Origin: Escherichia phage PGT2
Length of the DNA: 42,686 nt
Reading direction: 5' to 3' (one strand)
Sequence record: NC_047890.1
Under the pieces are notes generated by a model. That model made no database searches, was not told where the DNA came from, and saw nothing but the letters and a program-made list of their open reading frames with translations. Position 1 is the stretch's first letter, and each line of letters starts with the position of its first letter. Position numbers and translations under genes: made by a program. Below are positions 1,858 to 16,292 of this stretch, piece by piece.

Positions 1858-1878
1858 CAGAAAGTTTGAAGAAATAGG

Positions 1879-1907: not shown

Positions 1908-2122
1908 AGAAAGCAAGCAGTACAGCAGTATCACAGCAGCCTAGAATAGGTTGAGTCGCACTCGGTGTGAATAGCTGACCTGACAGCGATATGGTTCAGG
2001 GGGGCCGGAGGATAGACAGTGACGTCGCCAATAAGCCCAACAAACGAAAGGTTTGTTAGTGTATCCTCACAGTAGGGTACAGCAACAAACTAACCGTAAA
2101 CGCAACGTAAACGAGGCGCACC

Positions 2123-2362
2123 ATGACTACACGTACAGAATACAACGGACACAAAAACAAAACTCACTGGAATGTAAGCCTTTGGATTAATAACGATGAG
2201 GCACTTTACCAGTTGGCAAGAGAATTTATCAACGATAACAATAACCGTAATGATGCGGCCCGCGCTATGGCGTTATTTTTAGCACAGTTGGGACAAGATA
2301 AAACGCCGGACGGATTCAAATACAGCGCTACGGCGATCCGCGCCGCTATGGTTGAGATGTAA
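2123..2362 (+). CDS. Hypothetical early protein (79 aa)
   Basis: ATG with SD acgagg at 6-nt spacing; first of a run of tightly packed same-strand early ORFs. Confidence 0.55.
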   Translation: MTTRTEYNGHKNKTHWNVSLWINNDEALYQLAREFINDNNNRNDAARAMALFLAQLGQDKTPDGFKYSATAIRAAMVEM

Positions 2363-2373
2363 GGAGGCACAGC

Positions 2374-2640
2374 ATGAAACTTTCAAAACAGACCGCGACC
2401 GATATTAGAAGCGCACTCATTGGCAAGGACGTGCCAGCTATCGCAAAGGCTTATCAGGAAAAAGGTTTATCATTCACTCGCTTCATATGGGACGCGTATC
2501 ACTCTATCGGCCACGCTAAGACCAACGAGATACTGACAGCTAACAACAAGCTGACAGTTATTGGTGGCTATGTAACCGATATTAATGACAGCCATATTGA
2601 AACAATGCTAAAACTAGCGTTCAAAGATTGTAAGTTTTAA
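2374..2640 (+). CDS. Hypothetical early protein (88 aa)
   Basis: ATG preceded by strong SD aaggagg. Confidence 0.6.
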   Translation: MKLSKQTATDIRSALIGKDVPAIAKAYQEKGLSFTRFIWDAYHSIGHAKTNEILTANNKLTVIGGYVTDINDSHIETMLKLAFKDCKF

Positions 2641-2682
2641 GATAGCGGCATACAAATAAACGCAACGTAAATGAGGCGCACC

Positions 2683-3177
2683 ATGAAAGTATTAATTTCT
2701 GCATTCCGTAAAGAAAACGATCTGTTAACCCATATCAATAATCACGCGGAATTATTCGACCGCATCACCGCATTAGGATTGACGCCGCAGCCCGTCGATG
2801 GCGTGTGGAAAGGTGTATCGGAGTTTTCTTACATGGTACACGGTGTTACCACAGCGATGCTCAAAGCGTTTTATGCAATGGCCCGCGACTACAATCAGGA
2901 GGCTATCTTGCTTGTTGCTGATGATAACCGTGCCGCAGTAGTGCCCACCGATGGCCCGGTGATGGCCCCGATGATTGACGTTGGCGACTGGAGGGAAGTA
3001 AGCAAAGAGATCGCGATACAATTTGACGGATACACCAAGACACGCGACGGCCGCTATTTTGTCGCCGCCACTCGTGAGCAGTTCGGCCTCGCCACTCGTC
3101 GGCTGTTAGCCACACAGATGGGCGTAATCGCTGCTAACGAATATGCAGCACGTGTAAACGCAGTGGGAGGATTATAA
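2683..3177 (+). CDS. Hypothetical early protein (164 aa)
   Basis: Start at the second ATG (2683), chosen because the 28-nt block before it is 27/28 identical to the leader of ORF 2123; the provided ORF track begins at the in-frame ATG at 2671. Confidence 0.55.
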   Translation: MKVLISAFRKENDLLTHINNHAELFDRITALGLTPQPVDGVWKGVSEFSYMVHGVTTAMLKAFYAMARDYNQEAILLVADDNRAAVVPTDGPVMAPMIDVGDWREVSKEIAIQFDGYTKTRDGRYFVAATREQFGLATRRLLATQMGVIAANEYAARVNAVGGL

Positions 3178-3178
3178 A

Positions 3179-3427
3179 ATGCGCAAACTTAGTGAAATTG
3201 TACATCATACCAACGTATTCTATAACAGCAAGGGTTATCTGTGGATAACCCTGAAGGACGTGCGACCTGACGGGCGTCATCGTGTGGTAGTACGTAAAAT
3301 GTACAGCAAATACGTTAGTAATTGGTCATTGGATACAGTACGCATTAATAACGAGACTTTTCAGATTGACTCACAGATTGACCTACAACCAACGGCAAGC
3401 CATTCCGCACCATATTTTTCTAACTGA
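3179..3427 (+). CDS. Hypothetical early protein (82 aa)
   Basis: ATG preceded by SD gggagg; overlaps the stop of the upstream gene. Confidence 0.55.
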   Translation: MRKLSEIVHHTNVFYNSKGYLWITLKDVRPDGRHRVVVRKMYSKYVSNWSLDTVRINNETFQIDSQIDLQPTASHSAPYFSN

Positions 3428-3504
3428 ATCCGGGCCTATGCCGCGCACTCATGGGCGGCATACACACGCAGTCAGATCACTCCCATTAAATGAGGACACA
3501 GAGC

Positions 3505-3618
3505 ATGAACACAATAACATCCGGCCTTGCACTCATCGGCGCGATTATCGGCGTCGCTGTGTTTAACGCATTACCCTTGATTATTGGCGTGGCGGTCCTC
3601 AGTTGGTGGCTGTCATAA
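3505..3618 (+). CDS. Small hydrophobic peptide (37 aa), probable single-pass membrane protein
   Basis: ATG with SD gagga at 8-nt spacing; translation MNTITSGLALIGAIIGVAVFNALPLIIGVAVLSWWLS; below the 60-aa cutoff of the ORF track. Confidence 0.4.
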   Translation: MNTITSGLALIGAIIGVAVFNALPLIIGVAVLSWWLS

Positions 3619-3682
3619 TCCACGCACTCATAGCCACACTGTACGTTTCCCAATCGCATAAATCATTTTGAGATATACGCAT

Positions 3683-3862
3683 ATGAATATCAAAGAATCC
3701 GTATCCACAGAACGCGCCGCCGCCATACAGTACGCGCACGATAACCTATCACCGGATGCCTACTGGCTGTTCTGTGACCGCCTGCGAGAAACAGAAGACC
3801 TATCCCCGGATAATATCCACGCCCTTATTGTCGCAGTAGCGCAGGAGGTATCTAATGTTTGA
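3683..3862 (+). CDS. Small acidic early protein (59 aa)
   Basis: ORF track starts at TTG 3668; first in-frame ATG is 3683; weak RBS. Confidence 0.4.
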   Translation: MNIKESVSTERAAAIQYAHDNLSPDAYWLFCDRLRETEDLSPDNIHALIVAVAQEVSNV

Positions 3863-4103
3863 GGCAGCGAACGACGACCATTACAACGAAAAAACAGCGG
3901 TGGAAGAGGCACAGAAGCGCCAGCGGGATATAAATATGGCCTACTATACACGCGTGCCGCCGTTTTACGTGTTCCAGCAAGGCGCTGGCGTAGGCGTATC
4001 CTTCGGTTATGTCACGAGATACGGTTACTCCCGTGTAGGTTATGCCAGCTATTCAGATGCGGCAGAGGCGGCAGAGGCTTATTCCAGTGAGGTAGAAAGA
4101 TGA
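3855..4103 (+). CDS. Hypothetical early protein (82 aa), Tyr/Gly-rich
   Basis: ATG preceded by SD aggagg. Confidence 0.55.
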   Translation: MFEAANDDHYNEKTAVEEAQKRQRDINMAYYTRVPPFYVFQQGAGVGVSFGYVTRYGYSRVGYASYSDAAEAAEAYSSEVER

Positions 4104-4288
4104 CACAGCCTGTATATAACGTGTACCGGGGTACGGGCGTATGCGTCCGGATGACATACCGGGCTGTTCCGGGGGCCACAGTGTCCCAATTCCTCACTGA
4201 CTCCGGCTGGCAGGATAGTCTAGTGACTGAACGCACTATTCGCGCCAGTCTCCCACTCGTGGCTAAAAACGTGAGGTTCAAGGCATGA
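4100..4288 (+). CDS. Hypothetical early protein (62 aa)
   Basis: ATG preceded by SD gtgaggtag; overlaps the upstream stop. Confidence 0.5.
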   Translation: MTQPVYNVYRGTGVCVRMTYRAVPGATVSQFLTDSGWQDSLVTERTIRASLPLVAKNVRFKA

Positions 4289-4620
4289 AAATCATTAATC
4301 CGTTACATCTCATCCAGTTCGTGGTGGTTTACTTGTACACGTGGTACGCCCTACGCAGTGCGCCGCGTGTAGAAGGCTTTAACGTCGGCTGGAGTAGTCC
4401 GCACGATGACTTTCAGGTGTACTATAACGCGCAGGTCAACGTGTTAGGCGTAATCACACCAGCGCAGGACACTACATGGCAACCAGTCGGCTGGCGTGCG
4501 TGGTTCAACCTTGTCCGGGCATACGATGACCTGCTCGAACAGACCACAGCGGCGTTCATTGAAGCGTATCTCCCAGACTTCGCAGATGACATCAACGAAT
4601 CAGACACAGAGGACAAATAA
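4285..4620 (+). CDS. Hypothetical early protein (111 aa)
   Basis: ATG preceded by SD gtgagg at 8-nt spacing. Confidence 0.55.
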   Translation: MKIINPLHLIQFVVVYLYTWYALRSAPRVEGFNVGWSSPHDDFQVYYNAQVNVLGVITPAQDTTWQPVGWRAWFNLVRAYDDLLEQTTAAFIEAYLPDFADDINESDTEDK

Positions 4621-4622
4621 TT

Positions 4623-5132
4623 ATGACAAGCATCAATCCGGTAGACCTGACCACTTTAGGCGCACGAGTAACCGACCCGGCACAGTTGACAGAAGGCCGC
4701 TGGTATGTGGTCCGCGTTAACTGTAGAGGCTATACCCCACTGGTACACGCCAAATACTTGGGTATGAAAGGGCGCGCCTCACATGCGTTTGAGGTGTGCG
4801 ATGAGGATCATCTCGCGTTAAAGCGTTCTCTGGGCCTCGCCAAGCGCATCCACCGCGACAACGGTAGTATCCGCTCAGGGAAGATTGATGGCGGCGGTAT
4901 CTGCGAGATATTCAAGTTTAAGCAGGCGACAGCTACCCGATCCAATGCGCCGCAGCCCACCGCAACCTTATCCACAGTGGACCAATTCAAATCAGAGATT
5001 GACGCGTTACGTGCCAAGGCTACACAGAAGCGCGACCAGATTGCTCAGCTCTCAGAAGAGATTGCCGGGATTAACATCGCTATCTACGACACACGCAAGA
5101 AACTCAAAGCCAGCTTAGAGGGTTACATCTAA
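4623..5132 (+). CDS. Hypothetical early protein (169 aa)
   Basis: ATG two bases after the upstream stop; long ORF in the gene-dense early block. Confidence 0.55.
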   Translation: MTSINPVDLTTLGARVTDPAQLTEGRWYVVRVNCRGYTPLVHAKYLGMKGRASHAFEVCDEDHLALKRSLGLAKRIHRDNGSIRSGKIDGGGICEIFKFKQATATRSNAPQPTATLSTVDQFKSEIDALRAKATQKRDQIAQLSEEIAGINIAIYDTRKKLKASLEGYI

Positions 5133-5150
5133 TGCTTGAAGGTGACAAAC

Positions 5151-5462
5151 ATGAAACCGAATCAAAAGAAAATCCCCGCGCTCCTGCTATGCTCAGTCGG
5201 CCTGTTATGGGCGGTGGCGGGGGTCAATCAGGCGTATGCTTCGACCCATATGCAGCGGGAGACAGTGACGTTCAACAGTCTTTTCAAGTCGGATGGGATG
5301 ACTATCAGTGAGTATTGTTCTGTGACATTGCAGGGCAATACACAGATTGTTGAAGCATCCTGCTACGGCATACTGAAACCCACAGTGACGGACTTACAAC
5401 GCCGCTATCCACTCGTGGCCTTCCACGTGATTATCAATGGCGAGTCACTGAACACTATTTGA
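5151..5462 (+). CDS. Predicted secreted/periplasmic early protein (103 aa) with N-terminal signal peptide
   Basis: N-terminus MKPNQKKIPALLLCSVGLLWAVAGVNQAYAS has a basic n-region, hydrophobic core and AxA-like cleavage site; two Cys in the mature part; ORF track start 5136 is a TTG. Confidence 0.55.
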   Translation: MKPNQKKIPALLLCSVGLLWAVAGVNQAYASTHMQRETVTFNSLFKSDGMTISEYCSVTLQGNTQIVEASCYGILKPTVTDLQRRYPLVAFHVIINGESLNTI

Positions 5463-5470
5463 GGTGTATC

Positions 5471-5761
5471 ATGGAATTATCTGATGATGAACTGCGCCTG
5501 ATTCGTCGGGCGCTGGCGTTCGCAGTCCGTCACCTGCATGTATGTGCCGATGAAGCACGAGACAACCACCGCATTAAAGAGAAGCTCGACTGTCAGGTCG
5601 AAGCAGCACGGTTAACCACACTATCGGAGAAACTCCATGGGCAAATCATCAAACAACTCAAAGCCAAATCTCAAAACACTACACGAGGAACTGAGGGATG
5701 CGGAGCCAGATGCACTAATCTCTGTGCGGCAGGCGCGTGTCCTAATCGCCAGTCTGATTAA
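5471..5761 (+). CDS. Hypothetical early protein (96 aa)
   Basis: ATG with SD gagg at 6-nt spacing; its 3' part overlaps ORF 5637 in another frame. Confidence 0.4.
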   Translation: MELSDDELRLIRRALAFAVRHLHVCADEARDNHRIKEKLDCQVEAARLTTLSEKLHGQIIKQLKAKSQNTTRGTEGCGARCTNLCAAGACPNRQSD

Positions 5762-5963
5762 CCTCCAGAATGTTGTGGTGTCATTGATGGACACCATGGA
5801 CCATAACACCAAAATCATGAACGACTCCCACGCAGCGACGAATGAGAATTTCATCGGGCTGTTAGGCATCTGTAAGGTGCTGGGCCGGGAGTTAAACGTC
5901 GAGATTAACGGCATCAACGAGGCCACCACAGGCTCCCCATACAACAACAAAACGAGGCACTAA
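5637..5963 (+). CDS. Hypothetical early protein (108 aa)
   Basis: ATG with SD ggag at 7-nt spacing; overlaps ORF 5471 by about 125 nt. Confidence 0.4.
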   Translation: MGKSSNNSKPNLKTLHEELRDAEPDALISVRQARVLIASLINLQNVVVSLMDTMDHNTKIMNDSHAATNENFIGLLGICKVLGRELNVEINGINEATTGSPYNNKTRH

Positions 5964-5964
5964 T

Positions 5965-6270
5965 ATGAGCGAACGTATCTGCGTACCATATGCACGTAAA
6001 GGCAATCCAGACGTACACACTATCGTAATCCCAGCAGGCTTTATCAGTCTGGAAGACCTCTTGTCCCATGTCGGCTTCCAGCTTGGCATGGGCGACCAGT
6101 TGCTGGATGAGATTAACGGCCTTCTGGCACAGGAATACACAGCAGGCAAGCGCGCGCTGGCTGAAGTCCTGAGCCGGGCTACTCATAGCGCGACGTACAC
6201 TCCCAACATGGAGGATGCGCACCGTATCCTGACGGCTGAAGAATTGGGGTATGCAAATGACCGTGAGTAA
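5965..6270 (+). CDS. Hypothetical early protein (101 aa)
   Basis: ATG preceded by acgaggc-type SD. Confidence 0.55.
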   Translation: MSERICVPYARKGNPDVHTIVIPAGFISLEDLLSHVGFQLGMGDQLLDEINGLLAQEYTAGKRALAEVLSRATHSATYTPNMEDAHRILTAEELGYANDRE

Positions 6271-6361
6271 AGCCATTGGCTGGCTGATAGCCTACGCAGT
6301 GTTTTCTATAGTCGCCAACATCATCGGCGGCATCTCGTTAATTTTGTTCCTGCTCAAGTGA
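6251..6361 (+). CDS. Small hydrophobic peptide (36 aa), possible membrane protein
   Basis: Translation MQMTVSKAIGWLIAYAVFSIVANIIGGISLILFLLK; overlaps the end of ORF 5965 in another frame; weak RBS. Confidence 0.3.
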   Translation: MQMTVSKAIGWLIAYAVFSIVANIIGGISLILFLLK

Positions 6362-6369
6362 GGTAATTA

Positions 6370-6645
6370 ATGTCTGAGTTCCAGAAGAAACTTAAACAGG
6401 CGTTTTACGCTAACTTCTCCCGGCAGCGGACCGATAAAGAGGGTGTTATCTCTTACCGGACCTATTTTGGCACGTCCCTACCAACCACGCGGTACGTAGA
6501 GACGCTGGTGGATGAGAAGAAGTCTGCGACGGAAGGCGTGGACACAGTGGCGATTGTTGATCAGATTCGTGTGCACCATTTCAACGAAATCATGGGATAC
6601 ATCGACAACGAACTGCGCAAGGTTCTCAAATTGCAGGAGGGATAA
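6370..6645 (+). CDS. Hypothetical protein (91 aa)
   Basis: ATG preceded by SD gtgaggtaa; immediately upstream of primase. Confidence 0.55.
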   Translation: MSEFQKKLKQAFYANFSRQRTDKEGVISYRTYFGTSLPTTRYVETLVDEKKSATEGVDTVAIVDQIRVHHFNEIMGYIDNELRKVLKLQEG

Positions 6646-7466
6646 TGAACTACCGTGATTCCGATTGGTATTTGGCTATAAAAGACCATCCGGTCGGTAC
6701 TCGGCTGCGTATGGCACACGATGGCTGCTCCACGAGTGAGGCACTCATCGTCACAAAACAGGATTCCGGGGTAAGCGCGTATTGCTTCCGTTGCAAATGG
6801 AACGGATTCGTTGGCGCGCCTCCTGAATCGTTGGCCCAAAAGTTAGAGCGTAAATCTCGTGAGAAGCTCGCCAGCAAGGTGATGAAGGATAGTAAGGCGT
6901 TACCATCCCCCAAGTGCGAAAACATCGCTGAGTGGCCGCTAGAAGCGCGGATTTGGCTCTATAAAGCTGGACTTAATAACCATGACATATCTGAAGCTGG
7001 TATTTATTATCATGGAGGCAGTAATCGTGTGGTCATCCCTATATTTGATGGTGACGCGCTGGTGTATTGGCAAGCCCGTGGATTTGACCCTGAAGCGCCT
7101 AAGTACCTCAATCCGTCGGTGGTGGACCGGACTGCTCTTGTCGCCAACTGGTACGGCTCTGAAAGATGCCTTGTTCTTACAGAGGACTGGCTATCAGGCT
7201 ACCGGGTACATCGGGCCACAGGCTTCCAAGTCTATGCCCTCCTTGGGACAACACTCACGGACGCAATCGCGGCCCAAATCGTCTACAACCGTGTACCAGT
7301 GGCCATATGGCTCGACCCGGATTCGGCGGGCCAGACTGCGGCGCGGAAGATTATTGCTAAACTCAGTGCGCTGAACCACCCGGTTAAAAACATCGTCACT
7401 GAGCGGGATCCTAAACTTTACAGTGACGCAGAAATCCGGGAGGTGTTACGATGCGACCCACAGTGA
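6645..7466 (+). CDS. DNA primase (zinc-binding and TOPRIM domains)
   Basis: Cys cluster HDGC...CFRC near the N-terminus; TOPRIM-like LVLTEDWLSGYR and IWLDPDSAGQTAARK; strong SD aggaggg. Confidence 0.8.
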   Translation: MNYRDSDWYLAIKDHPVGTRLRMAHDGCSTSEALIVTKQDSGVSAYCFRCKWNGFVGAPPESLAQKLERKSREKLASKVMKDSKALPSPKCENIAEWPLEARIWLYKAGLNNHDISEAGIYYHGGSNRVVIPIFDGDALVYWQARGFDPEAPKYLNPSVVDRTALVANWYGSERCLVLTEDWLSGYRVHRATGFQVYALLGTTLTDAIAAQIVYNRVPVAIWLDPDSAGQTAARKIIAKLSALNHPVKNIVTERDPKLYSDAEIREVLRCDPQ

Positions 7467-7852
7467 TGGAGAGTTGTTGCATCTGCCATACGCAGAAAGG
7501 TCCCTATAATCAGGCAGGCCGTGCAACATACAAGGGCCGGATGGTGGGGTTACACAGGCTTATCTTCTTTAAGGAGTTCGGTTACTGGCCGGAAGTTGTC
7601 CTGCACCTCTGCGACAACCAGCGCTGTATAAATCCTGAACATCTGGTAGGAGGTACACAGGCAGACAACATCCGAGATGCAGTAGAGAAAGGGCGGTGGG
7701 TAAGAAATTTCCCTAATAAGTTATCCGCAGACACTGTTCGGGCCATACGAAGCGCGGTAGGCACAAACAAGCAGATAGCACAACAGTTTAATATAGACCC
7801 GGCGCATGTAAGCCGTATCAAAAATGGTATTGCTTATAAGGAGGTCACATAA
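7451..7852 (+). CDS. HNH homing endonuclease
   Basis: HNH core LHRLIF...HLCDNQRCINPEHL...N with a C-terminal helix-turn-helix-like segment; sits between primase and helicase. Confidence 0.7.
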   Translation: MRPTVMESCCICHTQKGPYNQAGRATYKGRMVGLHRLIFFKEFGYWPEVVLHLCDNQRCINPEHLVGGTQADNIRDAVEKGRWVRNFPNKLSADTVRAIRSAVGTNKQIAQQFNIDPAHVSRIKNGIAYKEVT

Positions 7853-7923
7853 GCCTCGATAGTGAATTTCTCCGTAGTATCCGACACCGCTCTAAGTTCA
7901 AAGAGCGTATAGGAACTACCCCC

Positions 7924-9132
7924 TTGTATTTGTTCGAAGAGAAGACACGCGACCTGATAAAGCTCATGTCACGTTATTTTAAGACTTACAAGGCGGCAGA
8001 CGTCATCCTAAAAGATGACTTCATAACTTGGCTGAATGAACTAAAGGGAGACAAACTAACAGAGTCTGACAGCATACTGTTTCAGGCACTCATGGAAGAT
8101 TTTGAGTATGACCTGTCTGCCGCCGCCGAGCAGTTCCTGACCGAGCGTTTGCAGGAATCCGATTTAGTCTACAAAACCGCAGACCTGATTGAGAAATGGT
8201 CGAACGGTGATGAGATTGAAATCATTGAGCAAATGAAAATCGTCACCGACAAAGCGGCATTTGGCCGTGCTGACCGGGACGGTATTAAAGTAGTCACAGA
8301 GTCGATTGAGGAGATTCTGGAGCACGCCGGGAGCAAGTGGGGATTCGAGTGGTCATTGCCAATATTAGCTAAGGCCATGCGACCCGCACAGCCGGGAGAC
8401 ATGATTCTCATAGCTGCCCGACCGGACCAAGGGAAGACTACATTCATCGGTAACATTGTCCGGCCTTGGCTGGCACAACTGGATGAAATATTCCCCGATG
8501 AAGAACGCTGCATTCTCTGGCTCAATAACGAGGGACCGGGTACTCGTATCAAGCTCCGAAATTACCAATCGGCCCTCGGCCTGACTATCCCAGAAGTGGA
8601 CCAGATGGCTCATACTCGTGGGATGCTGGACGAGGAATACAGGAAGGTGGTAGCCAATGCCGACCGCCTTATTATCCTCGACGTCCACGGCAAGAACACG
8701 GCACAGATTGAGCGGAAGATTGCTGAATTGAAGCCGGGTGTCATTGTCTGGGACATGCTGGATAAGGTGAAGTATGTTACAGAAGACGCTTTTAGGAATA
8801 CACGTACGGATGAGTATCTTGAAGGCTTGTACTCGTGGGTACGAGAATCCGGTGTCATATATGACTGCGTTAACGTCGTATCAACCCAGTTATCCGGTGA
8901 TGCTGAGAACATGCAGTATCCGCACCTCGGAATGCTCAAAGACTCAAAAACGGGCAAACAGGGTACGGCTGATGCCATCATTACGTTCGGGTCGGTTGAC
9001 ACTTACCCCCGTACACGATTCATTGGTCTTACTAAAAATAAGCTCAATATGGGCCGCGCTACGAGTCGCCTAGGCGAAGTCGTATTCGACGGTGCCCGTG
9101 GCTTAATCACTATGCCAGAGGTAGAGAAATGA
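7924..9132 (+). CDS. Replicative DNA helicase (DnaB/T7 gp4 helicase-domain type)
   Basis: Walker A ARPDQGKTT; the frame is closed upstream so the start is TTG 7924 or the internal ATG at 7966. Confidence 0.8.
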   Translation: MYLFEEKTRDLIKLMSRYFKTYKAADVILKDDFITWLNELKGDKLTESDSILFQALMEDFEYDLSAAAEQFLTERLQESDLVYKTADLIEKWSNGDEIEIIEQMKIVTDKAAFGRADRDGIKVVTESIEEILEHAGSKWGFEWSLPILAKAMRPAQPGDMILIAARPDQGKTTFIGNIVRPWLAQLDEIFPDEERCILWLNNEGPGTRIKLRNYQSALGLTIPEVDQMAHTRGMLDEEYRKVVANADRLIILDVHGKNTAQIERKIAELKPGVIVWDMLDKVKYVTEDAFRNTRTDEYLEGLYSWVRESGVIYDCVNVVSTQLSGDAENMQYPHLGMLKDSKTGKQGTADAIITFGSVDTYPRTRFIGLTKNKLNMGRATSRLGEVVFDGARGLITMPEVEK

Positions 9133-9716
9133 TTGATACAGTAGTTTTAACAGCATCCGGCCAATACGTGAATATCCTTGCACCAACCGAGGATGAGATT
9201 GACATCCACGACATTGCTCATGCACTGGCTAATATCAATCGGTTCAACGGTCACACCGCTGTACCCTACACGGTAGCAGAGCACTCATTGCGCTGTTCAG
9301 CCTTGCTTAAGGCGTGGGGATACACTCCCTCATCTCAGTTGGCTGGCCTGCTGCATGATGCTACCGAGGCGTATATCGGCGACGTGGCTACCCCACTCAA
9401 ACAACTGCTGCCAGAGTTCAGAGTCATTGAGAAGAATCTGGAAAAGGTTATTGAGAAGAAGTTCGACATTATCATTAATGACCGTCCAGAAGTCCATTAC
9501 GCAGACCTCCAGCTACTGGCATCCGAACGCAAGTACCTGATGCCGGAAACGCCTGAGTATGTTTGGGAGATTATCGACGGGATTGGCCCGACGACCTACT
9601 CCACAGTGACTGGCAACAATCCTAAGTGGGGTGGTCGGACGCATAAGGAACTGGTCGGCTGGTTCATTAAACGCTTTGAGCAACTTATCAACGAGGTTCA
9701 CAATGTTAAAAATTGA
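9129..9716 (+). CDS. HD-domain phosphohydrolase (5'-deoxynucleotidase-like)
   Basis: HD motifs NINRFNGH...EHS and LLHDATEAYIGD. Confidence 0.65.
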   Translation: MIDTVVLTASGQYVNILAPTEDEIDIHDIAHALANINRFNGHTAVPYTVAEHSLRCSALLKAWGYTPSSQLAGLLHDATEAYIGDVATPLKQLLPEFRVIEKNLEKVIEKKFDIIINDRPEVHYADLQLLASERKYLMPETPEYVWEIIDGIGPTTYSTVTGNNPKWGGRTHKELVGWFIKRFEQLINEVHNVKN

Positions 9717-9996
9717 CCTGACTATCGGCGCATTTAGGATAACCTCTGATGAACACAATTACATTCTGCACCAGTGCAAGCCTAAGACCAAGGGTAAGGA
9801 CGTAGGAACTTTACATTGGGCGGTGATCGGGTACTACAGCAGTCTGGAGCACGTCGCTGGTAATATCGCAAAGTGTGCCGCAGACGGCGTTACCGAAGGC
9901 TTCCCTATCTACCAACTCGACGACCTGAAGAAAGTAGAACGGGCTATCTCAGAGGTAGGCACGGAACTGGTTAAGGCAATACAGGAGAAAGTTTAA
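9703..9996 (+). CDS. Hypothetical protein (97 aa)
   Basis: In-frame ATG at 9703 with SD acgagg at 6-nt spacing; the ORF track starts further upstream (9631) inside the HD gene. Confidence 0.5.
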   Translation: MLKIDLTIGAFRITSDEHNYILHQCKPKTKGKDVGTLHWAVIGYYSSLEHVAGNIAKCAADGVTEGFPIYQLDDLKKVERAISEVGTELVKAIQEKV

Positions 9997-12389
9997 TGTC
10001 CTATGTAACGTTCGATTTGGAGACAACGGTCAAATCCTTGGCTAAACGCAAGGCCAGCCCGTTCCACCCGAACAATTTCATAGTGGCGATTGGTTGGAAA
10101 CGACAAAACTGCTCTGTTCAGGGTAGTTACAGTAAAACGGGCGAGCACCATCCCAATTGGTTCGAAGGTCTTTTGGCAGGTACTAAATTACTTGTCGGCC
10201 AGAATATCAAATTTGACATTCTCTATGCTATAACCCGGTCCGAATCGGCATACGCCGCTTGGATGAACTGGGTAGAGGCCGGAGGAAATGTTTGGGATTG
10301 CCAGCTTGCCGAGTATTTACTGCGAGGTCAGGAACAATCAGCCCACATGTTGTCGATGGATGAGATGGTCGAGGAGTACGGCGGGAACACGAAGGTGGAT
10401 GAAGTCAAAGCCATGTGGGAAGCAGGCTACGATACACCGGAGATTCCTGAAGACTTGCTGATGCGTTATCTCTGCGGTGAGACAAGGGATGATGGTACTC
10501 GCGTGTTCGGCGACATTGAGAACACCGAAGCAATCTTCCTCGGTCAATTGAAGAAGGCACGTAAGCGCGGCCACCTGAAGTCCATCATGCTTAACATGGG
10601 GAGCCTGTTGGCCTCCATAGAGATGGAAAAGAACGGTATGGCCGTTGACCTGAAACTGGGCTTAGAGCAAGCCGAGAAGTTGAAGGTAGCGTGCAACGAA
10701 CTCCGCGAGAAAATGCAGCAGTACCTGCCAAGTGACCTACCGTGTGAGTTTAACTGGGGTTCCGGGCACCACTTATCGGCCCTTATCTTCGGCGGCGCGA
10801 TTAAGTACAAGCAGAAAGCCGAGATTCTGGATGACGAAGGCAACAACGTTTACCCACAGATTAAGGCCGTAGGCTACGAGACAGTAACCGGGGACTTCGT
10901 GGTGCCGGGCCACGGTATCTCTGAAGAGCGTTTTCAGGAGATGGTTGAGGCCGGGAACATTGCCACGTACAAGGCCGGGAAGAAGAAGGGCCAGTTCCGG
11001 TCCAAGCAGGTTAACGTTGATGACCTGTCCCGTCCTAAGACGAAGATAATGGAGTTCCGGTACAACATGCCGGGGTTCACGGAGCCGGACCCGAAGTGGG
11101 AGACGAAGCACGAAGGCGTTTACGCCACTAATGCGGACGTCATTGAGGAATTAGGAACACGCGACGTACCGTTCCTGAAAGACCTCACCAAGCTCAACAA
11201 AATGGATAAAGACCTGACGACATACTATATCTGCGAAGACCCTAAGAAAGAGGGGATGTTCAAAGGTATGTTGACGCTGGTCGGCGATGACGGCATTATC
11301 CACGGCAGCATTAACCACACCTCCACAGTGACCGGGCGATTCTCTGCGAGCAACCCTAACCTCCAGAACATCCCCCGTGCGGACACTTCTGAAGTTAAGA
11401 AGCTGTTCATCTCGCGCTTCGGCGACGACGGCCAGATTATTCAGTCTGACTTCTCGTCTCTGGAGATTTACGTTCAGGCATTACTCACAGGTGACAAGCA
11501 ATTGCTGGCAGACCTGAAGAAAGGTCTGGACATGCACTGCGTTCGCGTCGCCAGTAAATTCGGGGTGCCCTATGAGGAAGCAGTCAAACGTTGTAAGAAG
11601 GATGTTGACGCGCCGGACTACAAGCTATGGAAGTCTCGCAGGACTGGATGTAAGGAATTTTCATTCCAACGAGCATACGGCGCTGGAGCGGCAGCAGTGG
11701 CGAACTCTACGGGGATGTCTATTGAAGACGTGCAGGACCTTATCAAGTTAGAGGACGAACGTTACCCGGAGATTGAACCATTCTATGCAAGAGTTACAGC
11801 AGCAATTAACGAAAGCCGAGTACCAACAAGTCTGTATGTACATCATCCAGAGATACGGGGACTGTCTGTCTGCATCGGCAAAGGATTTTATAGAACGCCT
11901 GATGGGAAGAAATACACTTACCGAGAGTACCCTGCTCCGGCTGGTTTTATCAAACGCGGGGGTGCACACGCCTCCTTCTCGCCTCCTGAAATTAAGAACT
12001 ACATTGTGCAGGGTACAGGTGGCGAGTGGGCGAAAGCTGCGATGTGGCTTGCAGTCCGCACATTCTATCGTTTCAACAACTTCGGAGGAAAGGCGCTCTT
12101 AGTGAATATGGTGCACGATGCGCAATACGTCGATGCTCACAATGACGTGCTGTTCGAAGCCTGCGTAGCGTTACATGCTGCAATGGAAGCGGCCAGCGAG
12201 TTCATGGAGTACCGATTCGATTGGCAGGTCGATGCCCCGGTCCCTTCAGAAACAACCTTTGGCCCAGCGATGTACTACGAGACTGGTGCCGACACCCTGC
12301 CGGGATTCGCCGAAGCAGTGCGTGCTGAACGTCTCAAAATCCGTAAGCTGTACATGAACGACTACCAACCATCATTCGAGGGTAATTAA
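9996..12389 (+). CDS. Family A DNA polymerase with 3'-5' exonuclease domain
   Basis: Exo I motif FDLETT; polymerase motif A DFSSLEIYV, motif B RTGCKEFSFQRAYG, motif C VHDA. Confidence 0.9.
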   Translation: MSYVTFDLETTVKSLAKRKASPFHPNNFIVAIGWKRQNCSVQGSYSKTGEHHPNWFEGLLAGTKLLVGQNIKFDILYAITRSESAYAAWMNWVEAGGNVWDCQLAEYLLRGQEQSAHMLSMDEMVEEYGGNTKVDEVKAMWEAGYDTPEIPEDLLMRYLCGETRDDGTRVFGDIENTEAIFLGQLKKARKRGHLKSIMLNMGSLLASIEMEKNGMAVDLKLGLEQAEKLKVACNELREKMQQYLPSDLPCEFNWGSGHHLSALIFGGAIKYKQKAEILDDEGNNVYPQIKAVGYETVTGDFVVPGHGISEERFQEMVEAGNIATYKAGKKKGQFRSKQVNVDDLSRPKTKIMEFRYNMPGFTEPDPKWETKHEGVYATNADVIEELGTRDVPFLKDLTKLNKMDKDLTTYYICEDPKKEGMFKGMLTLVGDDGIIHGSINHTSTVTGRFSASNPNLQNIPRADTSEVKKLFISRFGDDGQIIQSDFSSLEIYVQALLTGDKQLLADLKKGLDMHCVRVASKFGVPYEEAVKRCKKDVDAPDYKLWKSRRTGCKEFSFQRAYGAGAAAVANSTGMSIEDVQDLIKLEDERYPEIEPFYARVTAAINESRVPTSLYVHHPEIRGLSVCIGKGFYRTPDGKKYTYREYPAPAGFIKRGGAHASFSPPEIKNYIVQGTGGEWAKAAMWLAVRTFYRFNNFGGKALLVNMVHDAQYVDAHNDVLFEACVALHAAMEAASEFMEYRFDWQVDAPVPSETTFGPAMYYETGADTLPGFAEAVRAERLKIRKLYMNDYQPSFEGN

Positions 12390-12391
12390 TA

Positions 12392-13330
12392 ATGGCTAAG
12401 CAATTTTCCGTACTGAAGAAGAAAGAACTGCTCGTAGACCAGACCAAAGCAAGCACTGGTGGTGACTATACGCCGCCAGCGGAAGGTCTGGCCCGTGCCC
12501 GACTCGTCGCCTACGTCGAGGTCGGCAAGCATGAGAAGGTCAGTAAGCAATACGGCACCAAGGTCCAGAGCATGGTGCATCTGACCTTCGAACTGTCCGG
12601 TCCGAAGTGGGAGCCGAAGAAGCTGGATGATGGTACTCTGATTCCGCAGCGTATCACCCTGAAAGAGAACCTGTCCACTAACACCAAGGCGCGATTCTAC
12701 AAGCTGTTCCTGAAGCTCCGCGATGGTCGTGAGGACATTACTCACTTCGCCGAAATGCTGGGTGAAGCCTGCCTCATCCGTATCAAGCACCGTGAGTACG
12801 AGGTGGATGCTGGCGGTAAGAAAGAGAAGCGCGTTGCGGTCGATGTGTACTCTCCAGACAGTGGTTGGTCAATCACTCCTCCGTACATCCTGAAAGATAT
12901 TATGGATGAGAACGACGAACCGACTGGCGAGCAAGAGAAGAAGCACGTCACCGTCTCCGACCCGGTTAGTGACCTCCGCCTGTTCATCTGGGATTGCGCG
13001 GACAAAGAGCAGTGGGACAGCCTGTACATCGAGCCGGGTGACGGCGACCGCAGCAAGAACGTGTTCCAAGAACTGATTGTCAACGCGAAGAACTTTATCG
13101 GTTCCCCGGCTGAAGCAGCGGCACACGGCTCTGAATCTCTGGAGGCCATTCTGAAGGGTGGTAAGGGTTCAACCGAGCCTGCCACTGACGATGACGATGA
13201 TGATGGCTCAGAAGGCGTTGTAGAGGATAAGAGCAGCAAGAAAGCTACCTCTGTTGTGAAGAAGGTCGTTAAGAAGACGGTAGAGGCTGAAAAGCCTGCT
13301 GACGAAGATGACTTAGGGGATATTGACTAA
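12392..13330 (+). CDS. Hypothetical protein with acidic C-terminal tail; possible ssDNA-binding protein (T7 gp2.5-like)
   Basis: C-terminus DDDDDDGSEG...ADEDDLGDID; position between polymerase and exonuclease. No sequence-level match verified. Confidence 0.35.
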   Translation: MAKQFSVLKKKELLVDQTKASTGGDYTPPAEGLARARLVAYVEVGKHEKVSKQYGTKVQSMVHLTFELSGPKWEPKKLDDGTLIPQRITLKENLSTNTKARFYKLFLKLRDGREDITHFAEMLGEACLIRIKHREYEVDAGGKKEKRVAVDVYSPDSGWSITPPYILKDIMDENDEPTGEQEKKHVTVSDPVSDLRLFIWDCADKEQWDSLYIEPGDGDRSKNVFQELIVNAKNFIGSPAEAAAHGSESLEAILKGGKGSTEPATDDDDDDGSEGVVEDKSSKKATSVVKKVVKKTVEAEKPADEDDLGDID

Positions 13331-13331
13331 C

Positions 13332-14282
13332 ATGACAAAGTTCAAGCTGCCTAAAGACCTCAGTTCGATGGTGCAGCCTGAACCTGTTAGCATTGTCCCT
13401 CCCCAAGTTCCGGGGAGGGTCTGCCATGTTGATGCGGACTTCTTAGCTTACTTCGCCGCTGGCGGTGAGAATATGCCTATTAGCATATGCCGCCAAGTGG
13501 TTAAGGAACGCGTCGAGAAGTTCCGCGTCATGACAGGATCAGAATCTGTACTCCTGCACCTGACGGACAGCCGCTCAACAAAAGGCGACAGATACCTCGT
13601 AGGTGCTACCGTACCATATCAGGGTCAACGTCTCTCTGGTAAGAAACCCGGTAACTGGGCGGCTACCCGAGAGTATATCGAATCAGGTACTCATGGCCTC
13701 CCCATGAAGTTCTGGAAGACGAGGGAGGCGGATGATGGGGTCGCATATTGTGCAGAACGCAGTGGTGGGGTTGACGCTATATGCACAAAAGATAAGGACT
13801 TTCGGATGTTCTCCGGGCTGCATTGCTTATGGGATACGTTCCAATTGGTGCAGGTTAATCCCGGTGATTTTCGTGTGGATGGTCCTGCTCCTGCCAAGGG
13901 CAAAGTACAGAAGTATTACGGCCACTTCTTCTTCTGGCAGCAGATGTTGTACGGAGATACTGCGGATAACATCCCCGGTATACATGGGATTGGCGAGGCC
14001 ACTGCCGCCCAACTTCTGCTTGATTGTACTAATAACGCCGAAGCATTCGATGTTGTCGCTGATATTTACAGGAAAAAGAAACGGGAGGGGTGGTCTGATT
14101 ATATGGTTGAGCAGGCTGCGCTTCTATGGATGCGAACTGACCGACACGCAGACCTGCTGGATTTCCTCAAGATATTCCCGGAAGATGAGGAAATTATCAT
14201 TGCTGCGGAGAAGATGAGGCAGCGGGTTCTCGAAGATAAGGCTACCTTAGAGAGCATACTCAAAGGTTACTCACATAAATAG
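13332..14282 (+). CDS. 5'-3' exonuclease / flap endonuclease (T7 gp6-like)
   Basis: H3TH-type motif GDTADNIPGIHGIGEATAAQLL; ORF track start 13323 is a TTG, ATG at 13332 has better SD spacing. Confidence 0.8.
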   Translation: MTKFKLPKDLSSMVQPEPVSIVPPQVPGRVCHVDADFLAYFAAGGENMPISICRQVVKERVEKFRVMTGSESVLLHLTDSRSTKGDRYLVGATVPYQGQRLSGKKPGNWAATREYIESGTHGLPMKFWKTREADDGVAYCAERSGGVDAICTKDKDFRMFSGLHCLWDTFQLVQVNPGDFRVDGPAPAKGKVQKYYGHFFFWQQMLYGDTADNIPGIHGIGEATAAQLLLDCTNNAEAFDVVADIYRKKKREGWSDYMVEQAALLWMRTDRHADLLDFLKIFPEDEEIIIAAEKMRQRVLEDKATLESILKGYSHK

Positions 14283-14782: not shown

Positions 14783-15772
14783 ATGCCAAAGACTAATCTC
14801 ATTGCACTATTCACCAAGGAACAGCACCAGAACATCCTCGGCAAGCACCCCGACAACACGGCTGCTGCCAAGGCGTACAACGAACTGCTGGGCTGGAATA
14901 GTCCGGTAGTCTACCGCCAAGTGGTGGCGTACTGGCGCAAGATTTATATCGACCACGGTGGTAAGAAAGGCGAGGCTATTCGTGAAGAGAAACAAGCTGT
15001 TAAGCTGGTTCAGCCATCACCAAGTGACGATATTGGTAACACTGACGTCCCTGACGTGTGTCGCCGTATCCTTGTGGTTGGTGATTTACATGCTCCTTAT
15101 ACTCATCCCGACGCTATTGCTTTCCTTCGCCATGTCCGAGACAGTTATGTTCCTGACATGGTTGTTCAGGTAGGCGATGAGACGGACGGCCACGCAATCA
15201 GCTTCCACGACTCGGACCCGAATCTGGATAGCGCCGGGGTCGAATTAGAGAAAGCCAAAGCCGTACTGGAGCAATTACATGACCTGTTCCCGAACCTTCT
15301 GGTATGTGACTCCAATCACGGCAGTCTTGTGTATCGCCGCGCAAAGGCTCACGGTCTACCAGTGCAATTTATCAAGAAGTACCGTGATATTCTTTTCCCT
15401 GAGCACGGTGCTAAGAAGTGGTCATGGGCTGACGCATGGGTACTCAATACCCCGCTTGGCCAAGTTCGATTCCAACATCAAGTGTCGGGCGACTTCATGC
15501 TTAACGCCAGCCATGAGAGAACCTCGCTTGTCTTGGGTCACGAGCATGGTCGCTTTGAAGTGCAGTACGCAGCAAGCTCAACAGCTTTGTACTTTGGTGC
15601 ATACGCTGGGTGTCTGATTGACCGTAAGTCTCTGGCCTTTGCCTACGGCAAGTTGCACCGCAAGAAACCAATCCTCGGCGTGATGGTAATCACCGATGGT
15701 TGTCCGCAGTTAATCCCTATGCTGATGGATGAAAACGGGAGGTGGTGTGCGCGAGATAAAACCAAAGGTTGA
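14783..15772 (+). CDS. Calcineurin-like metallophosphoesterase
   Basis: Motifs VVGDLHAPY, VQVGDETDGH, CDSNHG, GHEH; in-frame ATG 14783 with upstream SD (ORF track start 14666 overlaps the endo VII gene). Confidence 0.65.
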   Translation: MPKTNLIALFTKEQHQNILGKHPDNTAAAKAYNELLGWNSPVVYRQVVAYWRKIYIDHGGKKGEAIREEKQAVKLVQPSPSDDIGNTDVPDVCRRILVVGDLHAPYTHPDAIAFLRHVRDSYVPDMVVQVGDETDGHAISFHDSDPNLDSAGVELEKAKAVLEQLHDLFPNLLVCDSNHGSLVYRRAKAHGLPVQFIKKYRDILFPEHGAKKWSWADAWVLNTPLGQVRFQHQVSGDFMLNASHERTSLVLGHEHGRFEVQYAASSTALYFGAYAGCLIDRKSLAFAYGKLHRKKPILGVMVITDGCPQLIPMLMDENGRWCARDKTKG

Positions 15773-15794
15773 TACAGGGAAGAGATTCCGGGGT

Positions 15795-16292
15795 ATGGTG
15801 GTGTACACTTGGGACTGCCCTTACTGTGGTAGAGAGTTTGAGGCTATACGGACTAAGCTCTTCAATACAAGTAAGCGAGGTGGTGCAGGGCATTGTGGGT
15901 GTCAGACTAAGGTTCGACAGTCACAAAGAAATGCAGGGCGTACACCGCCTAATAAGCTGGACGATTTGACAGCCTCCGCTAACAAGGTGTGGCAGTACAG
16001 TACCAAACTAGGCCGGAGCATTACTAAAGAGGATGCCAAAGCCTTAGTAAGTGCAAACTGTTACTACTGCGGGGCAGCGCCCAGCACCTACCGAGAGATT
16101 GGTGGAGGTCGCTGGTCGCGCAAGTCCGAAATACCCACAAACGGAATCGACAGAAAGGATTCATCTGTAGGTTATCACGTACATAATTGTGTACCTTGCT
16201 GCCCTACGTGCAACTACATGAAGTCCGATATGCACCACGACGACTTCTTGGAGTTGTGTAGTAAAATAGCCGACCGTTGGGCCGGTCGCTAA
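15795..16292 (+). CDS. HNH endonuclease (second free-standing copy)
   Basis: N-terminal CPYCG zinc motif and C-terminal HVHNCVPCCPTCNYMKSD HNH motif; start could also be ATG 15729. Confidence 0.65.
   Translation: MVVYTWDCPYCGREFEAIRTKLFNTSKRGGAGHCGCQTKVRQSQRNAGRTPPNKLDDLTASANKVWQYSTKLGRSITKEDAKALVSANCYYCGAAPSTYREIGGGRWSRKSEIPTNGIDRKDSSVGYHVHNCVPCCPTCNYMKSDMHHDDFLELCSKIADRWAGR

What the first reader, a model, noticed from the sequence alone, without database searches (positions are those of the whole stretch)
12392..13330. 312-aa protein with a poly-Asp acidic C-terminal tail after the polymerase gene
The C-terminal tail (DDDDDDGSEG...ADEDDLGDID) recalls the polymerase/helicase-interacting tail of T7 gp2.5 SSB, but the body is longer (312 versus 232 aa) and I see no clear sequence match. 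It may be a divergent SSB or a different replisome-interacting factor.
Basis: inference. Interest (0 to 1): 0.35.

Follow-up and report, generated by a model that had tools for sequence, protein, structure and literature searches.

The report
Likely single-stranded DNA-binding protein of phage
The gene after the phage DNA polymerase most likely encodes the phage's own single-stranded-DNA-binding protein, a divergent type that databases still label 'hypothetical', so the finding is real but largely ordinary.

Summary
The ORF (12392-13330, +, 312 aa) and its acidic tail are exactly as described. The window is a close relative of Escherichia phage phiKT, and the gene equals phiKT ORF7 ('hypothetical').

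It belongs to a large family (PHROG 862; 1,228 representatives at 50% identity) that sits between DNA polymerase and 5'-3' exonuclease in phiKMV-type phages.

AlphaFold2 gives a confident model: an N-terminal helix, a basic OB-fold core, a conserved C-terminal subdomain and a disordered acidic tail. Structure searches return almost only OB-fold ssDNA binders, at weak scores, plus phage DUF669 proteins.

It is not a T7 gp2.5 relative by profile or by fold ranking. Its architecture is collinear with a model of the validated phage N4 SSB, with a weak but above-null profile signal.

The conserved tail element is the C-terminal tip (DDLxDID here; DPLxG[ILV] in most members), not the poly-Asp run. 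In 12% of members, scattered across the family, the tip is DDDIPF, the bacterial SSB tip.

No other SSB candidate was found in the genome.

Verdict: a probable replicative SSB, a new member of a known kind. ssDNA binding is untested.

The parts
12392..13330 (+). Complete gene, 312 aa plus stop; probable phage SSB (orthologue of phiKT ORF7; PHROG 862)
12378..12382 (+). GAGGG Shine-Dalgarno-like site 9 nt upstream of the ATG, inside the 3' end of the polymerase gene
   Evidence: read directly from the sequence
12407..12430 (+). Predicted N-terminal helix (aa 6-13), followed by a Gly-containing low-confidence linker (aa 14-31). Possible self-association or cooperativity element (inferred).
   Evidence: a helix at the same position in the N4 SSB model; PrgE uses an N-terminal tail for oligomerisation
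12485..12844 (+). Predicted OB-fold core (aa 32-151): beta1 32-51, beta2 55-69, beta3 87-93, helix 101-110, beta4 126-140, beta5 143-151. Basic region (aa 31-160: pI 9.3, 11 aromatic residues). Invariant residues G32, R37, Y41, E43, G45, E67, G70, G81.
   Evidence: NCBIfam NF046043 hit on aa 25-136, E 5.4e-9
12884..13156 (+). Conserved C-terminal subdomain (aa 165-255): beta-hairpin 165-185 plus four short helices. Holds several of the family's near-invariant residues (F198, W200, W208, N223, Q226, N234, S238). Role unknown.
13166..13327 (+). Low-confidence, presumably disordered tail (aa 259-312; pLDDT below 50 over 272-298), net acidic. Built as acidic patch, then Lys-rich segment, then acidic tip.
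13187..13204 (+). Poly-Asp run DDDDDD (aa 266-271). The acidic character recurs in close relatives, but the run itself is not conserved.
13229..13276 (+). Lys-rich segment of the tail (aa 280-295, KSSKKATSVVKKVVKK)
13301..13327 (+). Conserved C-terminal tip DEDDLGDID (aa 304-312). D-D-L-x-D-I-D in most of the closest relatives; DPLxG[ILV] in most of the family; DDDIPF in 12%. Probable partner-docking peptide (inferred).
9996..12389 (+). Upstream neighbour: family A DNA polymerase (797 aa)
13332..14282 (+). Downstream neighbour: 5'-3' exonuclease. The start is probably the ATG at 13332, by analogy with phiKT ORF8; the ORF listing gives a TTG at 13323.
6645..9132 (+). Primase (6645-7466), an inserted HNH endonuclease (7451-7852) and DnaB-like helicase (7924-9132): the rest of the replisome, and candidate partners of the tail

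Best explanation
The gene most likely encodes the phage's replicative single-stranded-DNA-binding protein.

Shown by computation:
- a confidently predicted basic OB-fold core (aa 32-151);
- a conserved C-terminal subdomain (aa 165-255);
- a disordered, net-acidic tail (aa 259-312) ending in a conserved short motif;
- a fixed position between DNA polymerase and 5'-3' exonuclease.

Inferred:
- The OB core coats ssDNA exposed at the phage replication fork and during recombination.
- The acidic tail ends in a docking peptide (DDLxDID). It may recruit a phage replisome protein (polymerase, helicase or primase) and may fold back on the basic DNA-binding surface until ssDNA displaces it. From my own knowledge, this is how the tails of T7 gp2.5 and E. 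coli SSB work.
- In relatives whose tip is DDDIPF, the same position would instead engage the host's SSB-interacting proteins.

In evolutionary terms it is a divergent OB-fold SSB lineage. It is closest in structure and architecture to the N4-SSB/DUF669 group, not to T7 gp2.5.
For: Fold:
- AF2 model with pLDDT 84 overall and above 90 for aa 30-255, in OB strand order.
- By my count, 46 of the top 50 Foldseek PDB hits are SSB, RPA, editosome, telomere-protein or PriB OB folds.
- BFVD hits to DUF669 proteins at E 2e-5 to 6e-4.

Link to validated SSBs:
- DUF669 includes the in-vitro-validated HK620 SSB and is linked to N4 SSB (PMC5928155; PMC4889955). My own control reproduced that link (N4 family vs HK620 family, probability 90.6%).
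- The N4 SSB model is collinear with this one: helix at 6-13, first strand at residue 32, helix near 100, two hairpins, C-terminal helices, disordered tail.
- hhalign with secondary structure gives 36-39% probability (score 29) against a maximum of 3.3% (score 23.9) in 22 nulls.

Architecture:
- Core pI 9.3 and tail pI 4.15.
- 99% of 113 family tails are net negative, median net charge -7.
- The tip motif is conserved while the linker varies.
- 29 of 246 members end in DDD[IV]P[FY]. E. coli SSB ends in DDDIPF (full-length sequence matched to PDB 1EQQ).
- The DDDIPF members are scattered over 11 of 41 clusters.

Context:
- The order primase, helicase, polymerase, this gene, exonuclease, endonuclease VII is seen here, in phiKT, in LUZ19, in Xp10 and in a metagenomic DDDIPY-tipped member, and is described in PMC9145550.
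- No other ORF in the window matches an SSB family, and phiKT's annotation lists no SSB.

Experiment on a homologue: LUZ19 Gp21 is one of the most abundant late-early proteins of infection (PMC3604761).
Against: - No biochemical evidence exists for any member of this family.
- Plain profile comparisons with gp2.5, E. coli SSB, the N4-SSB family and the HK620-DUF669 family are not significant.
- No Pfam SSB or DUF669 hit in 257 members. However, NCBI-labelled DUF669 proteins also fail that scan.
- The acidic tail is not universal. LUZ19 Gp21 has an A/V/P/Q-rich, non-acidic tail, and N4 SSB ends in SLFGKK.
- In LUZ19, ectopic Gp21 arrested growth and lowered transcription and translation by 20-25% without affecting DNA synthesis. 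An SSB does not obviously predict this.
- NCBIfam's nearest model is named 'replication initiation protein'.
Confidence: 0.75

Rival explanations
1. The protein is mainly a single-strand annealing or recombination mediator rather than the fork SSB. It would work with the adjacent 5'-3' exonuclease and endonuclease VII to process and join replication intermediates.
For: It lies immediately upstream of the 5'-3' exonuclease and endonuclease VII. DUF669-type SSBs partner the Sak4 annealase in other phages. From my own knowledge, T7 gp2.5 itself anneals DNA.
Against: No similarity to any SSAP family was found in Pfam, PHROG or PDB searches. No Sak4 or other recombinase gene is nearby. The two roles are not exclusive, so this is more an added activity than a true alternative.
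Confidence: 0.1
2. The protein is a host-takeover factor. Its main job would be to shut down host processes, with the acidic tail acting as a decoy for host proteins.
For: LUZ19 Gp21 alone arrests P. aeruginosa growth immediately and lowers transcription and translation by 20-25% (PMC3604761). 12% of family members carry the host SSB tip DDDIPF, which could titrate host SSB partners.
Against: Host-takeover genes are usually small, poorly conserved and lie in the early region (my own knowledge). This gene is conserved across hosts from Pseudomonas to Vibrio to Rhizobium and is fixed inside the replication module. Toxicity of an over-expressed ssDNA binder is unsurprising. LUZ19 Gp21 is toxic yet lacks the acidic tail.
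Confidence: 0.06
3. The protein is a replication initiation protein, as the name of the nearest NCBIfam model (NF046043, NGO0469 family) suggests.
For: NF046043 matches aa 25-136 at E 5.4e-9. It also matches relatives: P0068 at 8.6e-16, Xp10 37L at 7e-8, LUZ19 Gp21 at 6e-4.
Against: All scores are below the curated cutoff (35.9 against 75 bits). The name traces to a 2007 in-silico annotation based on 26% identity over 109 aa to a nanovirus Rep and 32% over 87 aa to a phage primase, with no experiment (PMC1931599). The fold is OB with no nuclease or origin-binding domain detected. The window already has a separate ORF matching a 'replication initiation protein' PHROG (9631-9996, phrog_154).
Confidence: 0.03
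4. The protein is a polymerase accessory or processivity subunit that binds the DNA polymerase but does not coat ssDNA.
For: It is tightly coupled to the polymerase gene (2-nt gap), and the acidic tail could bind basic patches on the polymerase.
Against: The fold class and basic aromatic-rich core point to nucleic-acid binding. In phiKT an HNH endonuclease gene separates the two genes, and in LUZ19 gp20 and a promoter do, so the coupling is not conserved. The high abundance of LUZ19 Gp21 suits a stoichiometric DNA coat better than a polymerase subunit.
Confidence: 0.05

Closest known systems
Phage N4 SSB (gp45) and the DUF669 group, which includes the in-vitro-validated HK620 SSB (HkaK)
   Same: - Predicted OB-type core, with secondary-structure elements collinear with the N4 SSB model: helix 6-13, first strand at residue 32, helix near 100, two hairpins, C-terminal helices, disordered tail.
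- Foldseek matches to DUF669 phage proteins at E 2e-5 to 6e-4.
- A weak, above-null profile signal to the N4 family.
- Occurs in a genome with no other recognisable SSB, as reported for DUF669.
- PMC9145550 already calls the gene at this position in some phiKMV-type and Xp10-type phages 'DUF669-containing'.
   Different: - Plain profile-profile comparison is not significant (1-5%), whereas N4 against HK620-DUF669 gives 90.6%.
- No Pfam DUF669 hit.
- Not next to a sak4 gene; it lies between the polymerase and the exonuclease.
- The tip is acidic (DDLxDID), whereas N4 ends in SLFGKK and HK620 in DYPPF.
T7 gp2.5 SSB (PDB 1JE5)
   Same: An analogous layout: an OB-type body plus an acidic C-terminal tail, encoded by an Autographiviridae phage that also encodes its own helicase and family A polymerase. 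From my own knowledge, the gp2.5 tail contacts the polymerase and helicase.
   Different: - No sequence or profile similarity (probability 0.1%).
- The body is 80 aa longer, with an extra conserved C-terminal subdomain.
- The tail ends in Asp, not the terminal Phe of gp2.5.
- The gene sits after the polymerase.
Bacterial SSB (E. coli SSB, Pfam PF00436)
   Same: OB core, then a disordered linker, then a short acidic-hydrophobic tip. Bacterial SSBs dominate the Foldseek PDB list. 29 of 246 family members end in the bacterial tip DDD[IV]P[FY].
   Different: No Pfam SSB hit. hhalign probability is 2%. TM-scores are only 0.25-0.36 relative to the target. This protein's own tip is DEDDLGDID. It has an extra N-terminal helix and C-terminal subdomain. 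Its oligomeric state is unknown.
PrgE of plasmid pCF10 (PDB 8S4S)
   Different: 11% identity. PrgE is 128 residues in the solved chain and binds dsDNA as well as ssDNA. It is a plasmid protein, not a phage replisome protein.
LUZ19 Gp21 / PHROG 862 / NCBIfam NF046043 (NGO0469 family)
   Same: True sequence relatives: PHROG 862 at E 9.6e-72, LUZ19 Gp21 at 29% identity and E 5e-18 over the core, NF046043 at E 5.4e-9. LUZ19 Gp21 holds the same genomic position.
   Different: None of these has an established function. LUZ19 Gp21 has a non-acidic A/V/P/Q-rich tail. The NF046043 score is below its cutoff, and its name has no experimental basis.

Membership tests
PHROG 862 (phiKMV-type conserved protein, function unknown) | Significant full-length match to the family profile | tested here: met
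   E 9.6e-72, aa 9-307 against profile positions 12-272 of 276
T7 gp2.5-like SSB | Sequence or profile similarity to gp2.5 | tested here: not met
   hhalign of the family profile against gp2.5: probability 0.1%. The gp2.5 sequence was verified against 1JE5. The template was a single sequence, so this is a weak test.
T7 gp2.5-like SSB | Structure closer to 1JE5 than to other OB folds | tested here: not met
T7 gp2.5-like SSB | Acidic C-terminal tail ending in an aromatic residue | tested here: not met
   The tail is acidic but ends in ...DLGDID. Only 9 of 120 relatives have an aromatic residue in the last 5 positions.
Bacterial SSB (PF00436) | Match to the Pfam SSB model | tested here: not met
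   No hit in the query or in 257 family members at E up to 1. hhalign against E. coli SSB: 2%.
Bacterial SSB (PF00436) | OB fold superposable on bacterial SSB | tested here: inconclusive
   Bacterial SSBs fill most of the Foldseek PDB list, but at E 1.6e-2 or worse and target-normalised TM 0.25-0.36
Bacterial SSB (PF00436) | Disordered linker ending in the D-D-D-I-P-F tip | tested here: not met
   A disordered linker is present, but the tip is DEDDLGDID. The bacterial tip does occur in 29 of 246 other family members.
Bacterial SSB (PF00436) | Homotetramer that wraps ssDNA | not testable with these tools
   Only single-chain prediction was available
N4 SSB / DUF669 group | Profile similarity to the N4 SSB family | tested here: inconclusive
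   3-5% without secondary structure. 36-39% with AF2-derived secondary structure, against 3.3% or less in 22 nulls.
N4 SSB / DUF669 group | Profile similarity to the validated HK620 DUF669 SSB family | tested here: not met
   Probability 0.9-1.6%. The positive control (N4 family against HK620 family) gave 90.6%.
N4 SSB / DUF669 group | Match to Pfam DUF669 (PF05037) | tested here: inconclusive
   One of 257 members hit, at E 0.083. But the HK620 SSB and an NCBI-labelled DUF669 protein also fail this scan, so the test is insensitive.
N4 SSB / DUF669 group | Structural similarity to DUF669 or N4-type proteins | tested here: met
   Foldseek BFVD hits to three DUF669-labelled proteins at E 2.1e-5, 9.4e-5 and 6.5e-4. 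Secondary-structure order is collinear with the N4 SSB model. No direct superposition was possible.
N4 SSB / DUF669 group | Genome lacks any other recognisable SSB | tested here: met
   26 ORFs scanned against PHROGs, none SSB-like. No SSB in phiKT's annotation.
N4 SSB / DUF669 group | Binds ssDNA | not testable with these tools
   Needs EMSA or anisotropy with purified protein
NCBIfam NF046043 (NGO0469 family 'replication initiation protein') | Score at or above the curated cutoff (75 bits) | tested here: not met
   35.9 bits, E 5.4e-9, aa 25-136. It is a relative, not a member. The name has no experimental basis.

The most novel reading that the evidence does not exclude
This family could be a distinct SSB lineage whose C-terminal tip is an interchangeable adaptor. 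Most members would carry a phage-specific docking peptide (DPLxG[ILV] or DDLxDID) for a partner that is still unknown, possibly their own polymerase or helicase. Lineages scattered across the family have independently added or swapped in the bacterial SSB tip DDDIPF, sometimes in tandem with the phage tip, to tap the host's SSB-interaction network. If so, tip identity would report whether a phage replisome is self-contained or borrows host repair and replication factors. The DPLxG[ILV] peptide would be a new replisome interaction motif.
Probability: 0.3. Interest if true: 0.55.

Novelty: new member of a known kind. Interest (0 to 1): 0.35.

Why it matters
phiKMV-type podophages include many therapeutic candidates against Klebsiella, Pseudomonas and Acinetobacter, all of which appear among the 877 matching records. 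These phages encode their own primase, helicase and polymerase, yet no SSB is annotated. Nearly all of the listed records call this gene 'hypothetical', a few carry wrong labels ('Fe-S oxidoreductase', 'DNA polymerase'), and NCBI's nearest model says 'replication initiation protein'.

Assigning it as the probable SSB would:
- complete the replisome parts list for this phage group;
- offer an explanation for why LUZ19 Gp21 is so abundant and so toxic;
- give a concrete, cheap experiment to run.

The tip variation, including repeated appearance of the host SSB tip, is a tractable handle on how phage replisomes connect to host factors.

It does not change any general principle. OB-fold SSBs with acidic tails are textbook, and a DUF669/N4-type SSB had already been predicted for related phages.

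Tried and rejected
- **PDB sequence searches.** Searches with the protein and with the family profile found nothing.
- **Pfam.** Scans of the protein and of 257 relatives gave only noise, such as PLN_propep and Trypan_PARP.
- **gp2.5 and E. coli SSB kinship.** Rejected by hhalign. gp2.5 is also absent from the structural hit lists.
- **Bridging to a named family.** The exhaustive profile search lists only its best 150 hits, all clear family members, so no bridge was visible.
- **A retracted reading.** I first took the BFVD hits from Achromobacter phage Axy21 and Pseudomonas phage P3_CHA as N4-SSB orthologues. I withdrew this: from my own knowledge P3_CHA is a PAK_P3-type myovirus, the 379-aa Axy21 protein is too long, and neither was shown to be an N4-SSB orthologue. 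tblastn with N4 SSB shows the true orthologues.
- **Sequence link to the validated SSBs.** hhalign against the N4-SSB and HK620-DUF669 family alignments is not significant without secondary structure.
- **Pfam DUF669 as a membership test.** This proved uninformative, because known DUF669 proteins fail it too.
- **'Replication initiation protein'.** Traced to a weak 2007 BLAST annotation and rejected as a functional reading.
- **Literature.** Supplementary tables of Kazlauskas et al. are not held. Searches found no biochemical study of a phiKMV-type SSB.
- **DNA mimic or anti-restriction protein.** Considered because of the acidic tail and rejected: the tail is predicted disordered with a Lys-rich middle, the body is basic, and the gene is fixed in the replication module.

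Full report
**1. Observation**

It begins 2 nt after the stop of a 797-aa family A DNA polymerase (Pfam DNA_pol_A, E 8e-37). A GAGGG ribosome-binding site lies 9 nt upstream. It ends just before a 5'-3' exonuclease gene, which is followed by an endonuclease VII gene. The quoted tail is present: DDDDDD at aa 266-271 and ADEDDLGDID at aa 303-312.

The gene is real. It is 98% identical in nucleotides to ORF7 ('hypothetical protein') of Escherichia phage phiKT (Autographiviridae, Ermolevavirus). It matches PHROG 862 ('unknown function') at E 9.6e-72. tblastn finds it in 877 phage records. An exhaustive profile search finds 1,228 representatives at 50% identity, 554 of them at E 1e-30 or better.

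**2. The protein**

An AlphaFold2 model built on a 120-sequence alignment is confident (mean pLDDT 84; above 90 for about aa 30-255). Its parts are:
- an N-terminal helix (aa 6-13) on a Gly-containing, low-confidence linker;
- a core with the strand and helix order beta1 (32-51), beta2 (55-69), beta3 (87-93), helix (101-110), beta4 (126-140), beta5 (143-151), which is the OB-fold order;
- a further hairpin (165-185) and four short helices up to aa 255, holding several of the family's near-invariant residues (F198, W200, W208, N223, Q226, N234);
- a low-confidence tail from about aa 259.

The region containing the core (aa 31-160) is basic (pI 9.3, 11 aromatic residues) and the tail is acidic (pI 4.15).

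**3. Fold comparisons**

T7 gp2.5 (1JE5) is not among the listed hits. A profile comparison with the verified gp2.5 sequence gives 0.1% probability.

In the viral structure library the strongest hits are the protein's own family, including Xp10 37L and phiL7 p43. These are followed by several 'DUF669 domain-containing' phage proteins at E 2e-5 to 6e-4.

**4. Link to validated SSBs**

Kazlauskas et al. linked the experimentally characterised N4 SSB to DUF669 at 98% HHsearch probability. They noted acidic tails and weak OB matches, observed that DUF669 phages lack other SSBs, and proposed that these proteins are replicative SSBs with highly evolved OB folds (PMC4889955). Hutinet et al. showed in vitro that the DUF669 protein of HK620 is an SSB (PMC5928155). 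[quoted passage not shown]

I tested the link directly, with mixed results:
- With family alignments for N4 SSB (A2) and HK620 SSB (A3), the literature link is reproduced (90.6% probability, E 1.3e-6).
- This family scores only 1-5% against either.
- No member hits Pfam DUF669 convincingly. Bona fide DUF669 proteins also fail that scan, so it is uninformative.
- An AF2 model of N4 SSB (pLDDT 86) is strikingly collinear with this protein: helix 6-13, first strand at residue 32, helix 98-111, two long hairpins, C-terminal helices and a disordered tail.
- Adding these secondary structures to hhalign raises the probability against the N4 family to 36-39% (score 29). A relaxed alignment runs 1-234 against 1-234. 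Twenty-two reversed or block-shuffled nulls reach at most 3.3% (score 23.9).

I read this as probable but unproven distant homology. What I claim firmly is that the protein works like an SSB of this kind, not that it is a member of the family.

**5. The tail**

Across the 113 A1 relatives with an alignable tail, the tail has a median length of 39 aa, is about half P/G/A/S/T/Q and is net negative in 99% (median net charge -7).

In the closest (enterobacterial-type) relatives the tail is tripartite: an acidic patch, a Lys-rich stretch and an acidic tip.

Across 246 full-length members the tips fall into four classes:
- 114 end in a DPLxG[ILV]-type tip;
- 69 end in a D(D/A)LxG/D-[IV] type, which includes this protein;
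- 29 end in D-D-D-[IV]-P-[FY];
- 34 are other.

The DDDIPF members are scattered over 11 of 41 clusters at about 45% identity, and most have DPLxG-tipped nearest neighbours. Eight carry both motifs in tandem; for example, P0077 ends in DPLAGIDDDIPF. A DDDIPY-tipped member sits in the same primase, helicase, polymerase, gene, exonuclease, endonuclease VII module. Repeated acquisition of the host SSB tip at the same position is, to me, the strongest functional argument that this C-terminus plays the role of an SSB tail.

**6. Context and experiments on homologues**

No other ORF in the window matches an SSB family (26 ORFs scanned), and phiKT's annotation lists none.

LUZ19 Gp21 is the homologue at the same position (29% identity, E 5e-18). 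It is one of the most abundant late-early proteins of infection, and it arrests host growth when expressed alone (PMC3604761). The abundance suits a stoichiometric DNA coat.

There are caveats. In that study DNA synthesis was unaffected while transcription and translation fell by 20-25%. LUZ19 Gp21 also has a long A/V/P/Q-rich tail that is not acidic. The core is therefore family-wide, while the acidic tail is a feature of a large subfamily.

**7. Rival readings**

- **Annealing or recombination mediator.** This is compatible with an SSB role rather than exclusive of it.
- **Host-takeover factor.** It fits the LUZ19 toxicity but not the deep conservation and fixed position.
- **'Replication initiation protein'.** This is the name of the nearest NCBIfam model, NF046043 (E 5.4e-9, 35.9 bits against a cutoff of 75). 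The name rests on a 2007 BLAST guess, 26% identity over 109 aa to a nanovirus Rep, with no experiment. In that gonococcal prophage, NGO0469 lies two genes from a Sfi21-orf157-like gene, a gene type reported next to sak4/SSB modules. That fits an SSB at least as well.
- **Polymerase accessory subunit.** This is unlikely, given the fold and the non-conserved coupling to the polymerase gene.

**8. Verdict**

The gp2.5 comparison holds only as an analogy.

The protein is best described as a probable replicative SSB of a divergent OB-fold lineage, closest in structure and layout to the N4-SSB/DUF669 group, with a modular acidic tail. That makes it a new member of a known kind, in a family databases still call hypothetical.

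The modest novelty lies in the tip motifs and the repeated capture of the host SSB tip. ssDNA binding, oligomeric state and the partner of the tip remain untested. Confidence in the SSB assignment is about 0.75. Interest is 0.35.

Noticed in passing
window 12389-12392; 7451-7852; 15729-16292 (compare phiKT NC_019520 7435-7821): Homing-endonuclease content differs from phiKT. phiKT has an HNH endonuclease (ORF6) between the polymerase and ORF7, and it is absent here. The window instead has an HNH endonuclease between primase and helicase (phrog_59, E 7.5e-23). It also has an endonuclease VII/HNH-like ORF between the metallophosphoesterase and the dNMP kinase (phrog_1035, E 2e-25). phiKT has only short gaps at those two sites.
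   Followed up: partly
L008 (Xp10 NC_004902) locus 6610-7419, minus strand: Xp10 37L, annotated as 201 aa, looks truncated. After in-frame stops the same frame continues and ends in ...GDEPDLDLI, a family-type tip. This suggests a sequencing error or frameshift in the record, or a pseudogene.
   Followed up: no
window 13323-13334: The 5'-3' exonuclease ORF is listed from a TTG at 13323, which overlaps the end of this gene. The ATG at 13332, 2 nt after the stop, matches phiKT's annotated ORF8 start and is the more likely start.
   Followed up: partly
NCBIfam NF046043; Pfam PF05037: Two annotation problems. NF046043 is named 'phage replication initiation protein', and the only basis found is a marginal 2007 BLAST similarity. 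Pfam DUF669 in this library is not hit by the validated HK620 SSB or by a protein NCBI labels DUF669.
   Followed up: partly
L007 (LUZ19 AM910651) locus 3324-4427: LUZ19 gp21 has a phage-specific promoter annotated immediately upstream. Its roughly 90-aa tail is A/V/P/Q-rich with repeated AVP/VPQ units rather than acidic, so tail chemistry differs sharply between subfamilies.
   Followed up: partly
window 1-6645: About 17 small + strand ORFs lie in the presumed early region, which corresponds to the largely unannotated ends of the phiKT record. Most have no PHROG match. A SAM-dependent methyltransferase ORF is at 2671-3177.
   Followed up: no
Records listed (e.g. OP117450, PP889456; Achromobacter phage Axy21): A few public records label homologues of this gene 'Fe-S oxidoreductase' or place them under 'DNA polymerase'. 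Only one listed record (Klebsiella phage AttikonH4) calls it an ssDNA-binding protein. Annotation of this family is inconsistent.
   Followed up: no
window 9631-9996: A 121-aa ORF matches phrog_154 'replication initiation protein' (E 3.4e-19; the counterpart of phiKT ORF4). It overlaps the 3' end of the HD-domain dNMP phosphatase gene (9129-9716) in another frame.
   Followed up: no
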